This document shows, piece after piece, positions 62,416 through 63,805 of a stretch of 64,000 bases of DNA. Position 1 is the stretch's first letter, and every line of letters starts with the position of its first letter. The stretch is from an uncultured Thermoleophilia bacterium (GTDB lineage Bacteria > Actinomycetota > Thermoleophilia > UBA2241): NCBI GenBank assembly GCA_963767505.1, contig CAVYDV010000008.1, forward strand, positions 166,937 through 230,936, given 5' to 3'. A program made the position numbers and the translations under genes. The notes under the pieces were generated by a model. The model was not told the DNA's origin and did no database searches. It saw nothing but the letters and a program-made list of their open reading frames with translations.

Positions 62416-63805
62416 TTGGAGGCCAGCGTCCCTACTCGCATGGGCGACGGATCGCTCATCGAGATGACTCGCTCCGAGATCCGGGCCGATCTCGAGGCGG
62501 GCACGCAGATAGCGGCCAAGAAGGCCAAGGTCCCGGAGCTCACGCAGGACGAACTCGACCATCTTCTCGAGATCTACGGGTCGTCGGCACGCTTCACGGC
62601 TGTGGACATCGGCGACGAGGTCGTCCTGTCCAACGACGGTACCGGGCTCCAAGCACATCGGCAATCGCGTGCAGGACCTGCAGTCGTACGAGGCGCTGAT
62701 CGGTGTCGACATCGTCGAGCTCTGGCAGATCGACTACTCCTACAAGGCCATCAAGACCAACGTGGCCCACGAGGGGCAGTCGATGAAGATCGCCCAGGCC
62801 CTGCTCACCAATCCGGTCCAGTACGGGGCGATGCCCGACCTGGGCCGCTACTCGACGCCGGACGGCCCTATCCCGAACTGGTCGGAGCTCCTGCCCCTGG
62901 GCAAGATCGACGAGGCCCGGCAGGCGCAGGAAGAGGCTGCCGCGATGCTCGTCGACGACATCAACTTCGTCGCCGACCACCTGGTCGCCGCGGGCGCCGA
63001 CGGCATCGATTTCGACACGACCGGAGCGGCCGGCGACGCCGACTTCCTCGCCGGCCTCGAAGCGTGCCGCATGTTGCGCGAGAAGTACCCCTGGCTGGGC
63101 ATCGAGATCGGCATGGCCAGCGAGTTCGTGCTCGGCATGCACGGCCAGCTCACCTTCGACGGCGAGCGTCTGGCCGGCATGTGGCCCAAGGACCAGTTGC
63201 GCATGGTGCAGGCGGCCGGCGCCAGCATCTACGGGCCGGCCGTCAACATCAACACGGGCAAGTCGACCGCCTGGAACATCGCCCGCGCCATCACGTTCAT
63301 CAAGCCGGCCATGGAGATCGCCGAGATCCCCGTCCACGTGAACGTGGGCATGGGCGTCGGCGGCGTGCCGACGTGCGTCTACCCGCCGGCCGACGCCACC
63401 TCGCGAGCCTCCAAGGCCTTCGTCGAGATCCTCAAGATCGACGGCTACTAGGCGGGCACCGGCGACTCCCTTGGTATGGAGTCTGCTCACACGCAGGCTT
63501 CGGGCATGGGCGGGATGCGAGCGGCTGGAGATCTGGTCGCACGTATGCAAATGACCCGGAGGATGCGTCTCAAGGAAGCGAAGCAGTACGTGGCCGACAA
63601 GCTCGGCTGCGGCACGCGAGACCTCAGCGACCCCGTGGCGATGGAGCAGATCCGCATCGAGAAGGGGCTGGGGATCCTGCCGTTCACCTCGTCGGTGCGC
63701 CCCGACGACGCGGGCATGATGGAGGCCAAGTTCAACATCGCGCGGACGCTCGACATCCCCATCAACTGCGTCGAGCGCTTCAAGGCCCGCGCCGGATTGG
63801 CGTAA
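62416..63805 (+). CDS. mtbB: Dimethylamine:corrinoid methyltransferase (MtbB family) with one in-frame TAG (candidate pyrrolysine codon) and one apparent 1-nt indel near 62644
   Basis: The N-terminus is in track ORF 62257..63879. A TTG at 62416 has GGAGG 8 nt upstream and gives (M)EASVPTRMGDGSLIEMTRSEI... The core is ORF 62669..63451 ([31 protein letters not shown]). ORF 63476..63805 ([13 protein letters not shown]...) is in the same frame. The only interruption is TAG 63449-63451, and the 24 nt after it are open. The stop is TAA at 63803-63805. Confidence 0.85.
63449..63451 (+). other. In-frame UAG inside the mtbB frame (candidate Pyl codon)
   Basis: ...atc gac ggc tac TAG gcg ggc acc ggc gac tcc ctt ggt atg gag... 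reads ...[17 protein letters not shown]..., with family similarity on both sides. Confidence 0.7.

What the first reader, a model, noticed from the sequence alone, without database searches (positions are those of the whole stretch)
62416..63805. MtbB-type dimethylamine methyltransferase interrupted only by an in-frame TAG: candidate pyrrolysine decoding in an Actinomycetota-like genome
Seen in sequence:
- One reading frame is open from about 62645 to the TAA at 63803-63805, except for a single TAG (63449-63451).
- The ORF track therefore reports two ORFs (62669..63451 and 63476..63805). They are in the same frame and the 24 nt between them contain no stop.
- Protein similarity runs straight across the TAG: ...[49 protein letters not shown]...
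- Adding the N-terminal part (TTG 62416, with one 1-nt indel near 62644) gives a product of about 460 aa.
- It carries the blocks [31 protein letters not shown] and AAGDLVARM, which I recognise as the dimethylamine:corrinoid methyltransferase family (MtbB, Pfam Dimeth_PyL).

Established knowledge: MtbB genes of methanogens and a few anaerobic bacteria contain exactly one in-frame UAG. It lies about three quarters of the way along the gene and is translated as the catalytic pyrrolysine. Here the UAG is at roughly codon 345 of about 463.

Inference: this is a Pyl-dependent methylamine methyltransferase. All the synteny in this window (fhaA-pknB cluster, topA-tmk-holB, dnaK-hspR, ino1-pimA) points to an Actinomycetota host, a phylum in which I am not aware of characterised Pyl decoding. 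No pylT, pylS, pylBCD, cognate corrinoid protein or mtbA-type gene lies in this window.
Basis: partly seen in the sequence, partly recalled or inferred. Interest (0 to 1): 0.85.

Follow-up and report, generated by a model that had tools for sequence, protein, structure and literature searches.

The report
Pyrrolysine-type dimethylamine methyltransferase gene in Thermoleophilia
This is a real gene for a dimethylamine-demethylating enzyme whose in-frame "stop" codon encodes the rare 22nd amino acid pyrrolysine, in an uncultured soil or wetland actinobacterium (class Thermoleophilia). Related genomes carry the full pyrrolysine machinery, and this group has already been reported to express such genes, so it is a solid but not new kind of finding.

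Summary
Window 62416-63805 (+) encodes a full-length MtbB (Pfam Dimeth_Pyl 551.6 bits; NCBIfam TIGR02368 434.9 bits, cut-off 369.1). It is interrupted by one in-frame TAG (63449-63451) and by one extra C at 62642/62643.

- **TAG position:** it lies exactly where MtbB gene calls of Pyl-using methanogens (Methanomethylophilaceae) end. It is invariant in 54/54 unbroken orthologous loci.
- **Selection:** the 117 codons after the TAG are under the same purifying selection as the 344 before it (dN/dS 0.23 vs 0.22).
- **Host:** the closest genome (94% DNA identity) is a Thermoleophilia MAG.
- **Pyl machinery:** the window has no pyl genes. Three related MAGs carry an orthologue together with pyl genes: two have the full pylT(CUA)-pylSn-pylSc-pylBCD set plus a corrinoid protein (all proteins above NCBIfam cut-offs), the third a partly sampled cluster with pylSc.
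- **Frameshift:** almost certainly an assembly error. The window carries about ten other 1-nt indels against its relative, and they split essential ligA and three more genes.
- **Novelty:** modest. PylRS was reported in two Actinobacteria genomes (Guo 2022). Actinobacteriota MAGs, including Thermoleophilia genus Bog-752, were reported to express Pyl-type mtbB/mttB (Ellenbogen 2023).

Pyl decoding in this genome is inferred, not shown.

The parts
62401..62407 (+). Shine-Dalgarno-like GAGGAGG, 8 nt upstream of the TTG start
   Evidence: Read from the sequence. The TTGGAG start is conserved in the 4 relatives aligned.
62416..63805 (+). mtbB, pyrrolysine-type dimethylamine:corrinoid methyltransferase. 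After removing one inserted C it has 462 codons plus TAA.
   Evidence: PF09505 551.6 bits, full length. TIGR02368 equivalog 434.9 bits against a cut-off of 369.1. 99% amino-acid identity to L002, a Thermoleophilia MAG.
62642..62643 (+). CC dinucleotide of which one C is extra. This +1 frameshift is a probable assembly error.
   Evidence: Relatives read GGTA-CGGG. The window has about ten further 1-nt indels against L002 (nine insertions, one deletion) that split the EAL, GGDEF and HAD-like genes and ligA.
63449..63451 (+). In-frame UAG, codon 345, at the pyrrolysine position
   Evidence: TAG in 54/54 unbroken orthologues. Gene calls of Methanomethylophilaceae MtbB end at the residue before this column.
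63452..63805 (+). Post-UAG segment (117 codons) and TAA stop
   Evidence: Matches PF09505 positions 356-462 on its own, E 5.4e-37. dN/dS 0.23 against 0.22 upstream.
63522..63539 (+). 7-bp hairpin within the coding sequence (CGGCTGG-AGAT-CTGGTCG), 73-90 nt after the UAG, with covarying synonymous sites. Role unknown.
   Evidence: 97.4% of cells paired; 0/500 shuffles reach the covariation score. Across 81 distinct sequences: C.G 42, G.C 22, U.G 16, mismatch 1.
63815..64000 (-). 3' end of an ABC-transporter ATPase gene, convergent with mtbB. It belongs to an SBP(PF04392)-permease-ATPase operon that follows mtbB in most relatives.
   Evidence: Its sequence closely resembles the C-terminus of the L006 ATPase. 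L002 continues with a BPD_transp_2 permease and an ABC_sub_bind protein. Synteny. The 61-aa fragment itself has no Pfam hit.
61125..62312 (-). D-Ala-D-Ala carboxypeptidase gene (context, divergent from mtbB)
   Evidence: PF00768 162.7 bits plus PBP5_C.
58585..58660 (+). tRNA-Thr(UGU), a conserved upstream neighbour of mtbB in this clade (context)
   Evidence: ARAGORN. The same tRNA lies upstream of mtbB in most of the 78 loci.
56019..58521 (+). ligA (NAD-dependent DNA ligase), split over two frames in the window. Used as a control for assembly quality.
   Evidence: tblastn with the intact L002 LigA hits frame 3 (56019-56669) and frame 1 (56671-58518). The indels are listed.

Best explanation
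The locus is the mtbB gene of an uncultured Thermoleophilia bacterium. Its relatives include UBA2241 and bog_752, the namesakes of GTDB order UBA2241 and genus Bog-752.

It encodes a roughly 462-residue dimethylamine:corrinoid methyltransferase (MT1). The single in-frame UAG at codon 345 is translated as pyrrolysine by a tRNA-Pyl(CUA). That tRNA is charged by a split bacterial-type synthetase (PylSn + PylSc), and the amino acid is made by PylB, PylC and PylD. These genes would lie elsewhere in the genome.

By analogy with characterised MtbB, pyrrolysine binds and activates dimethylamine so that a methyl group passes to the Co(I) of a cognate corrinoid protein. A second methyltransferase then passes it on, probably to tetrahydrofolate in a bacterium.

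The +1 frameshift at 62642/62643 is an error of the assembly, not a feature of the gene.

**Shown here:** family membership, the position and conservation of the UAG, selection on the post-UAG segment, pyl genes in three related MAGs (complete cassettes in two), and the error-prone state of the window.

**Inferred:** that this genome carries the cassette, the substrate, the fate of the methyl group, and any link to the neighbouring ABC importer.
For: - **Family:** full-length PF09505 match, TIGR02368 equivalog above cut-off, and the post-UAG part matching alone.
- **Pyl column:** all close homologues in a 5.8-billion-protein set are 336-349 aa, i.e. they stop at the same codon. Representatives of 353-356 aa, including Methanomethylophilaceae MtbB, end exactly at the residue before the window's TAG.
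- **Conservation:** TAG in 54/54 orthologues, with the next stop at codon 461-467.
- **Selection:** median dN/dS is 0.216 before and 0.234 after the TAG over 1431 pairs. Window vs L013, post-TAG: dN 0.0095, dS 0.29. Window vs L002, whole gene: 5 nonsynonymous and 26 synonymous differences.
- **Machinery in the clade:**
  - L079 is the same contig as orthologue L058. It carries pylSc, a corrinoid protein, pylSn, pylT(cta) and pylD/C/B, all proteins above NCBIfam cut-offs.
  - L083 carries the same cluster in MAG JAAZAR01, which also holds positional orthologue L026.
  - L086 carries pylSc in MAG CAZJGT01, which also holds L041.
  - PylSc matches D. hafniense PylSc structures at E 1e-91.
  - More than 120 PylSc clusters at 78% identity or above exist, some named Thermoleophilia by NCBI.
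- **Frameshift as artefact:** nine other 1-nt insertions and one deletion against L002 in 52.9-56.7 kb break EAL, GGDEF and HAD-like genes and essential ligA, all intact in L002.
- **Literature:** expressed Pyl-type mtbB/mttB in Actinobacteriota MAGs of Stordalen Mire (PMC10805028).
Against: - No pyl gene, corrinoid protein or tRNA-Pyl lies in the 64-kb window, nor within 10 kb downstream in its closest relative L002.
- The window's own genome could not be retrieved. An exact look-up failed, and the genome is not among the species representatives. The cassette's presence there is therefore an inference from relatives at 81-86% MtbB identity.
- As it stands, the gene is frameshifted.
- TAG is still used as an ordinary stop in this clade (7 of 72 called genes), and it ends many mtbB orthologues themselves. 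Decoding must therefore compete with termination.
- There is no expression or peptide evidence for this genome.
Confidence: 0.85

Rival explanations
1. Genuine pseudogene. The frameshift is real, and this genome is losing (or has lost) dimethylamine use and perhaps its pyl cassette. The TAG would then be a relic of a Pyl-decoding ancestor.
For: - The frameshift is present in the sequence as given.
- There are no pyl or corrinoid genes in the window or next to the gene in L002.
- The ABC operon that follows mtbB in most relatives is inverted here.
Against: - The same window carries nine further 1-nt insertions and one deletion that break four other genes, including essential ligA. Other long-read MAG loci show the same kind of breaks.
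- Window vs L002 shows 5 nonsynonymous and 26 synonymous differences. Any decay would therefore have to be very recent.
- The insertion has no other disabling companion within the gene.
Confidence: 0.08
2. The UAG is a true stop. The cell would make a 344-aa truncated protein, possibly plus a separate 109-aa product from ATG 63476, that works without pyrrolysine.
For: - Gene callers predict exactly these two pieces everywhere.
- An ATG lies 8 codons after the TAG.
- TAG is used as a normal stop in the clade.
Against: - The 8 codons between the TAG and the ATG are conserved, in frame, and part of the family motif (xGxGDxxGM).
- Selection is equal on both sides, and frame continuity is kept in 54/54 loci.
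- The residue at this column is the catalytic pyrrolysine in characterised MtbB (established knowledge).
- Complete pyl cassettes occur in related MAGs, and the only UAG-interrupted genes noticed in the fetched loci of these genomes are mtbB and mttB.
Confidence: 0.03
3. Mis-binned or chimeric contig. The mtbB end of the window would come from a different, known Pyl-using organism rather than from an actinobacterium.
For: The gene lies at the very end of the window, and the assembly is of low accuracy.
Against: - The same ligA - tRNA-Thr - mtbB - ABC arrangement is found on contigs of up to 2.1 Mb in dozens of independently assembled Thermoleophilia/Actinomycetota MAGs.
- L002 is collinear with the window over 11.6 kb, across the gene.
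- The gene's GC3 (0.86-0.92) matches that of its neighbours.
Confidence: 0.01

Closest known systems
MtbB of methylotrophic methanogens (Methanosarcina MtbB1-3; Methanomassiliicoccales/Methanomethylophilaceae MtbB)
   Same: - Same family (PF09505 / TIGR02368) and same length.
- A single in-frame UAG at the same alignment column.
- Conserved motifs on both sides of it.
   Different: - Only about 44-48% identical.
- Bacterial host.
- No adjacent mtbC, mtbA or permease.
- In most relatives an ABC importer of the PF04392 type follows the gene.
- The methyl acceptor cannot be coenzyme M.
Bacterial pyrrolysine systems (Desulfitobacterium hafniense, Acetohalobium arabaticum, Bilophila wadsworthia) with split PylSn/PylSc
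   Same: - Relatives of the window genome have a split pylSn + pylSc, pylBCD and a 73-nt tRNA-Pyl(CUA).
- Their PylSc is closest to the D. hafniense PylSc structures 3DSQ/2ZNI.
   Different: - Different phylum.
- The cassette is interrupted by unrelated genes (SAM-methyltransferase, radical-SAM, Germane-domain protein) and sits in a conserved chromosomal context (tldD/pmbA - osmC - uppP - amidase ... nitroreductase - thiS - AFOR).
- The Pyl enzymes found in the fetched loci include several mtbB paralogues, not only mttB.
Pyl-type mtbB/mttB of Actinobacteriota MAGs from Stordalen Mire (Ellenbogen et al. 2023, PMC10805028) and PylRS in 'two Actinobacteria' (Guo et al. 2022, PMC9630628)
   Same: Same gene family, and the relatives overlap. 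Loci L024 (bog_752), L031/L054 (palsa_647), L032 (palsa_645) and L057 (fen_672) are MAGs whose names point to that site. L023 is UBA2241, the namesake of the GTDB order that holds genus Bog-752.
   Different: - In the main text, that paper identified Pyl genes by truncation only. It has no occurrence of pylS or pylB, so it does not describe the pyl cassette, the tRNA or selection after the UAG.
- The window comes from another genome. No exact look-up hit was found, and its nearest species representative is a MAG whose isolate name carries the MFD prefix.
Non-Pyl members of methylamine methyltransferase families (e.g. the MttB-superfamily quaternary-amine methyltransferases)
   Same: - Relatives carry non-Pyl MttB-family genes beside the Pyl genes.
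- One full-length MtbB homologue (P0267) has Trp at the Pyl column.
   Different: The window gene keeps the UAG. It is not a sense-codon variant.

Membership tests
MtbB, dimethylamine:corrinoid methyltransferase (PF09505 / TIGR02368) | Full-length match to the family model above the curated cut-off | tested here: met
   PF09505 551.6 bits (cut-off 25), covering profile 4-462/463. TIGR02368 equivalog 434.9 bits against 369.1.
MtbB, dimethylamine:corrinoid methyltransferase (PF09505 / TIGR02368) | Exactly one in-frame UAG, at the pyrrolysine column | tested here: met
   There is one TAG, at codon 345. Methanomethylophilaceae MtbB gene calls and other MtbB gene calls (353-356 aa) end at the preceding residue. 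TAG in 54/54 orthologues.
MtbB, dimethylamine:corrinoid methyltransferase (PF09505 / TIGR02368) | The sequence after the UAG is translated (conserved and under purifying selection) | tested here: met
   dN/dS 0.234 after against 0.216 before. The C-terminal part matches PF09505 positions 356-462 on its own.
MtbB, dimethylamine:corrinoid methyltransferase (PF09505 / TIGR02368) | Uninterrupted reading frame apart from the UAG | tested here: inconclusive
   There is one extra C at 62642/62643. The pattern of other 1-nt indels in the window points to assembly error. Reads were not available.
MtbB, dimethylamine:corrinoid methyltransferase (PF09505 / TIGR02368) | Cognate corrinoid protein (MtbC type) encoded nearby | tested here: not met
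   None in the window or in L002. A corrinoid protein lies 5-8 kb downstream in many other orthologous loci and beside pylSc in the pyl cluster.
MtbB, dimethylamine:corrinoid methyltransferase (PF09505 / TIGR02368) | Dimethylamine-specific methyl transfer to a corrinoid | not testable with these tools
   This needs an enzyme assay. No solved MtbB structure exists for comparison.
Pyrrolysine decoding system (pylT, pylS, pylBCD) | tRNA-Pyl with CUA anticodon in the same genome | not testable with these tools
Present in related MAGs: L079-L083.
Pyrrolysine decoding system (pylT, pylS, pylBCD) | PylS (PylSn + PylSc) and PylB, PylC, PylD in the same genome | not testable with these tools
   Absent from the window. 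In relatives all five pass the NCBIfam equivalog cut-offs: TIGR02367 322.5, TIGR03912 127.6, TIGR03910 440.6, TIGR03909 328.1, TIGR03911 205.1. They co-occur with an mtbB orthologue on one contig (L058/L079) and in MAG JAAZAR01; in MAG CAZJGT01 only pylSc was recovered.
Pyrrolysine decoding system (pylT, pylS, pylBCD) | Pyl-containing peptide or full-length read-through product | not testable with these tools
   There are no proteomic data. Only metatranscript evidence for related MAGs exists in the literature (PMC10805028).

The most novel reading that the evidence does not exclude
A whole lineage of anaerobic soil, peat and digester Thermoleophilia (around GTDB order UBA2241) has vertically inherited a complete pyrrolysine cassette fixed in a conserved chromosomal context. 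It uses the cassette for a multi-copy set of UAG-containing mtbB and mttB genes. mtbB is coupled to an ABC importer rather than to the methanogen-type gene set. A conserved hairpin within the gene, downstream of the UAG, has an unexplained role. Many of these genes also end in UAG, which would imply context-dependent decoding. This would make Actinomycetota a major, so far uncharacterised, bacterial reservoir of Pyl decoding and a competitor of methanogens for methylamines.
Probability: 0.45. Interest if true: 0.55.

Novelty: new member of a known kind. Interest (0 to 1): 0.35.

Why it matters
Pyrrolysine decoding has been studied experimentally only in methanogens and in a few Firmicutes and Deltaproteobacteria.

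This locus and its roughly 77 relatives show that Pyl-type dimethylamine (and trimethylamine) methyltransferases are common in uncultured Thermoleophilia, and related MAGs carry a full pyl cassette. The MAG names and record titles point to bog, fen and palsa soils, lake sediment and anaerobic reactors.

If these genes are functional, such bacteria would consume methylamines that otherwise feed methylotrophic methanogenesis. That matters for wetland methane budgets. They would also offer a new, high-GC bacterial PylRS/tRNA-Pyl pair.

For genome annotation, the locus is a reminder that mtbB in these MAGs is routinely split into two "genes". It also shows that long-read MAG frameshifts can mimic pseudogenes.

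Tried and rejected
- **tRNA-Pyl next to mtbB:** ARAGORN on 78 mtbB loci found none within 10 kb, only a conserved tRNA-Thr(UGU).
- **Window's own contig:** an exact look-up of the window's 109-aa post-TAG product found nothing on record, so the contig could not be extended.
- **Solved structures:** a PDB sequence search with MtbB gave no hit.
- **Guo et al. 2022 supplement:** not held, so the 'two Actinobacteria' could not be named.
- **Literature:** 'Thermoleophilia + pyrrolysine' gave only an irrelevant hit.
- **Linking L002's MAG (closest relative) to a pylS:** contig lengths never coincide. Look-ups of P0145, P0129, P0137 and P0226 hit other samples. Only P0121, P0172 and P0197 gave same-contig or same-MAG links.
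- It served only as a lead. The hit was then confirmed with NCBIfam and PDB searches.
- **Programmed +1 frameshift at 62642:** rejected, because relatives lack the extra base and I see no slippery motif in GGTACCGGG.
- **PYLIS-like element right after the UAG:** the consensus fold of the first 60 nt shows no pair kept through a change on both sides in more than one sequence, and the 119-nt region folds no better than shuffles (z -1.1). Only the more distal 7-bp hairpin covaries.
- **Other TAG-joined ORF pairs in the window:** 35173-37203/37204-37830 and 46964-48085/48086-48529. This was not tested further.
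Full report
**1. The observation**

- One frame is open from 62513 to the TAA at 63803-63805, apart from a TAG at 63449-63451.
- The two listed ORFs (62669..63451 and 63476..63805) share that frame, and the 24 nt between them have no stop.
- The first 75 codons, from TTG 62416 (GAGGAGG lies 8 nt upstream), are in another frame.
- An alignment with four relatives shows that the window reads GGTACCGGG where they read GGTA-CGGG. One C at 62642/62643 is therefore extra.
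- After its removal the product is 462 aa and the TAG is codon 345.

The repaired protein matches Pfam Dimeth_Pyl from end to end (551.6 bits, E 1.6e-165). It also passes the NCBIfam equivalog TIGR02368 (434.9 bits against a cut-off of 369.1). The 117 residues after the TAG match the Pfam model on their own, at positions 356-462 of 463 (E 5.4e-37).

**2. Is the TAG at the pyrrolysine column?**

- The 120 best hits of a search of 5.8 billion proteins are nearly all 336-349 aa. Gene callers stop at the same codon everywhere.
- A search of 50%-identity representatives found full-size N-terminal pieces of 353-356 aa whose matches run to their last residue.
- One of these clusters is named MtbB of Candidatus Methanomethylophilaceae, which are Pyl-using methanogens.
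- In the alignment, all six such sequences end at the residue aligned with the Tyr that precedes the window's TAG.

From memory, Pyl is residue 356 in Methanosarcina MtbB. This was not tested here, but it fits the 355-aa gene calls.

**3. Host and relatives**

A scan of one genome per species returned 77 loci. Nearly all are MAGs labelled Thermoleophilia, Actinomycetes or Actinomycetota.
- The best, L002 (isolate MFD09964.bin.1.34, an 872-kb contig), is 99% identical in protein. It is 94.4% identical in DNA and collinear with the window over 52413-64000.
- The set includes UBA2241 and bog_752, which give their names to GTDB order UBA2241 and genus Bog-752 of Thermoleophilia.
- The arrangement ligA - tRNA-Thr(UGU) - mtbB - ABC transporter (PF04392 binding protein, permease, ATPase) is conserved. 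In the window and L002 the transporter operon is inverted, so that it converges on mtbB.

**4. Is the post-TAG part translated?**

- In 54 unbroken orthologues plus the window, codon 345 is always TAG and the next stop falls at codon 461-467.
- Median pairwise dN/dS is 0.216 before and 0.234 after the TAG (1431 pairs).
- Window vs L013, post-TAG part: dN 0.0095 and dS 0.29.
- Window vs L002, whole gene: 5 nonsynonymous and 26 synonymous differences.

The two parts therefore evolve as one protein, in this lineage as well.

**5. The frameshift**

Against L002, the window has nine other 1-nt insertions and one deletion between 52.9 and 56.7 kb.
- Genes that are single ORFs in L002 are spread over two or three frames in the window. 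These are an EAL protein, a GGDEF protein, a HAD-like hydrolase and the essential NAD-dependent DNA ligase.
- Other long-read MAG loci (L010, L053, L059, L060, L063-L065) show similar breaks.

A broken ligA cannot be biology. The extra C in mtbB is therefore most simply one more assembly error. Reads would settle it.

**6. Pyrrolysine machinery**

The window has no CUA tRNA and no match to Pyl proteins or a corrinoid protein. None of the 78 mtbB loci has a tRNA-Pyl within 10 kb.

Fetching around that hit (L079) showed the following on the same contig as an mtbB orthologue 81% identical to the window's:
- pylSc, a SAM-methyltransferase, a corrinoid protein, a radical-SAM gene, pylSn and a Germane-domain gene;
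- then tRNA-Pyl(cta), pylD, pylC and pylB.

All five Pyl proteins and the corrinoid protein pass their NCBIfam cut-offs. PylSc is closest to the D. hafniense PylSc structures (E 1e-91).

The same cluster, in the same chromosomal context (tldD/pmbA - osmC - uppP - amidase on one side, nitroreductase - thiS - ferredoxin - AFOR on the other), recurs in other contigs. The tRNA-Pyl differs at only two positions among the four copies aligned.

Two further same-genome links exist:
- JAAZAR010000071 (the cluster with pylT) and JAAZAR010000084 (L026, mtbB followed by the ABC binding protein, 85% identical).
- CAZJGT010000091 (pylSc) and CAZJGT010000126 (L041, 86% identical).

More than 120 PylSc clusters at 78% identity or above exist. 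NCBI already names some 'pyrrolysine--tRNA(Pyl) ligase large subunit [Thermoleophilia bacterium]'.

I could not reach the rest of the window's own genome, nor find pylS in L002's MAG.

**7. Wider gene set**

Relatives such as L006 and L057 carry several related genes close together:
- two or three mtbB paralogues, each with the TAG;
- an mttB split by a TAG at the expected place (Pfam MTTB positions 25-334 and 341-494);
- a corrinoid protein;
- non-Pyl MttB-family genes.

No MT2 methyltransferase or RamA-type activase was looked for systematically.

**8. Mechanism**

*Shown:* an MtbB-family gene with a conserved, selected UAG at the Pyl column, in a clade whose members encode the whole Pyl apparatus.

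*Inferred from characterised methanogen MtbB:*
- Pyl activates dimethylamine for methyl transfer to Co(I) of a corrinoid protein.
- In a bacterium the methyl group then probably goes to tetrahydrofolate.
- The adjacent ABC importer may supply the substrate.

TAG ends 7 of 72 called genes in relatives and ends many mtbB orthologues themselves. Read-through must therefore compete with termination, as in other Pyl bacteria.

**9. Comparison with what is known, and novelty**

- Guo et al. 2022 counted PylRS in two Actinobacteria genomes (PMC9630628).
- Ellenbogen et al. [quoted passage not shown] Several of the loci found here appear, by their names, to come from that site.
- No paper was found that describes the cassette, the tRNA or selection after the UAG in Thermoleophilia.

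The finding is therefore a further member of a known kind. It adds useful detail, and it lacks direct proof for this genome.

**10. Verdict**

- Observation: confirmed.
- Interpretation: supported, at confidence 0.85 for a functional Pyl-type mtbB with an artefactual frameshift.
- Novelty: new member of a known kind.
- Interest: 0.35.

Noticed in passing
window 52900-56700 (also 62642): Against its closest relative L002, the window has nine single-base insertions and one deletion inside coding sequence. They split an EAL gene, a GGDEF gene, a HAD-like gene and essential ligA into two or three frames. The assembly behind this window is error-prone, so any 'pseudogene' in it needs read support.
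   Followed up: yes
window 63522-63539; same position in 135 mtbB copies of loci L001-L078: A 7-bp hairpin (CGGCTGG-AGAT-CTGGTCG) lies inside the AAGDLVA coding motif, 73-90 nt after the UAG. Two synonymous third-codon positions covary (C.G 42, G.C 22, U.G 16, one mismatch in 81 distinct sequences). It is probably too far from the UAG to touch a ribosome paused there (my estimate). Its role is unknown.
   Followed up: partly
window 58585-58660 and 63815-64000; loci L001-L066: The synteny ligA - tRNA-Thr(UGU) - mtbB - ABC transporter (PF04392 binding protein, BPD_transp_2 permease, ATPase) is conserved. In most relatives the transporter follows mtbB on the same strand, like an operon. In the window and L002 it is inverted. 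It may be a methylamine importer, which would differ from methanogen gene sets.
   Followed up: partly
L006 7724-9196, 9983-11386, 14436-20701; L057 5166-8266, 10126-11889: Relatives hold methylamine gene islands. These contain two or three mtbB paralogues (each with the TAG), an mttB split by a TAG at the Pyl position, a corrinoid protein, a TetR-like regulator (read from the translation, not tested) and two non-Pyl MttB-family genes.
   Followed up: partly
L079 10001-18219; L080-L083, L089, L094: The Thermoleophilia pyl cassette is interrupted by unrelated genes (SAM-methyltransferase, radical-SAM protein, Germane/Gmad2 lipoprotein-like gene). It sits in a fixed chromosomal context, next to nitroreductase - ThiS - ferredoxin - aldehyde:ferredoxin oxidoreductase genes. 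This hints at vertical inheritance and an anaerobic lifestyle.
   Followed up: partly
protein P0267 (JGI metagenome, 463 aa), alignment A1 column of the Pyl residue: A full-length MtbB homologue (38% identical in alignment A1) has Trp at the pyrrolysine column and reads through without a stop. It may be a non-Pyl variant of the MtbB family.
   Followed up: no
loci L004-L009, L017, L021, L037, L056, L066, L072-L074 and others (codon ~462 of mtbB): Many mtbB orthologues end in TAG as well as carrying the internal TAG. The same mRNA would then need UAG read as Pyl once and as stop once. The window's copy ends in TAA.
   Followed up: no
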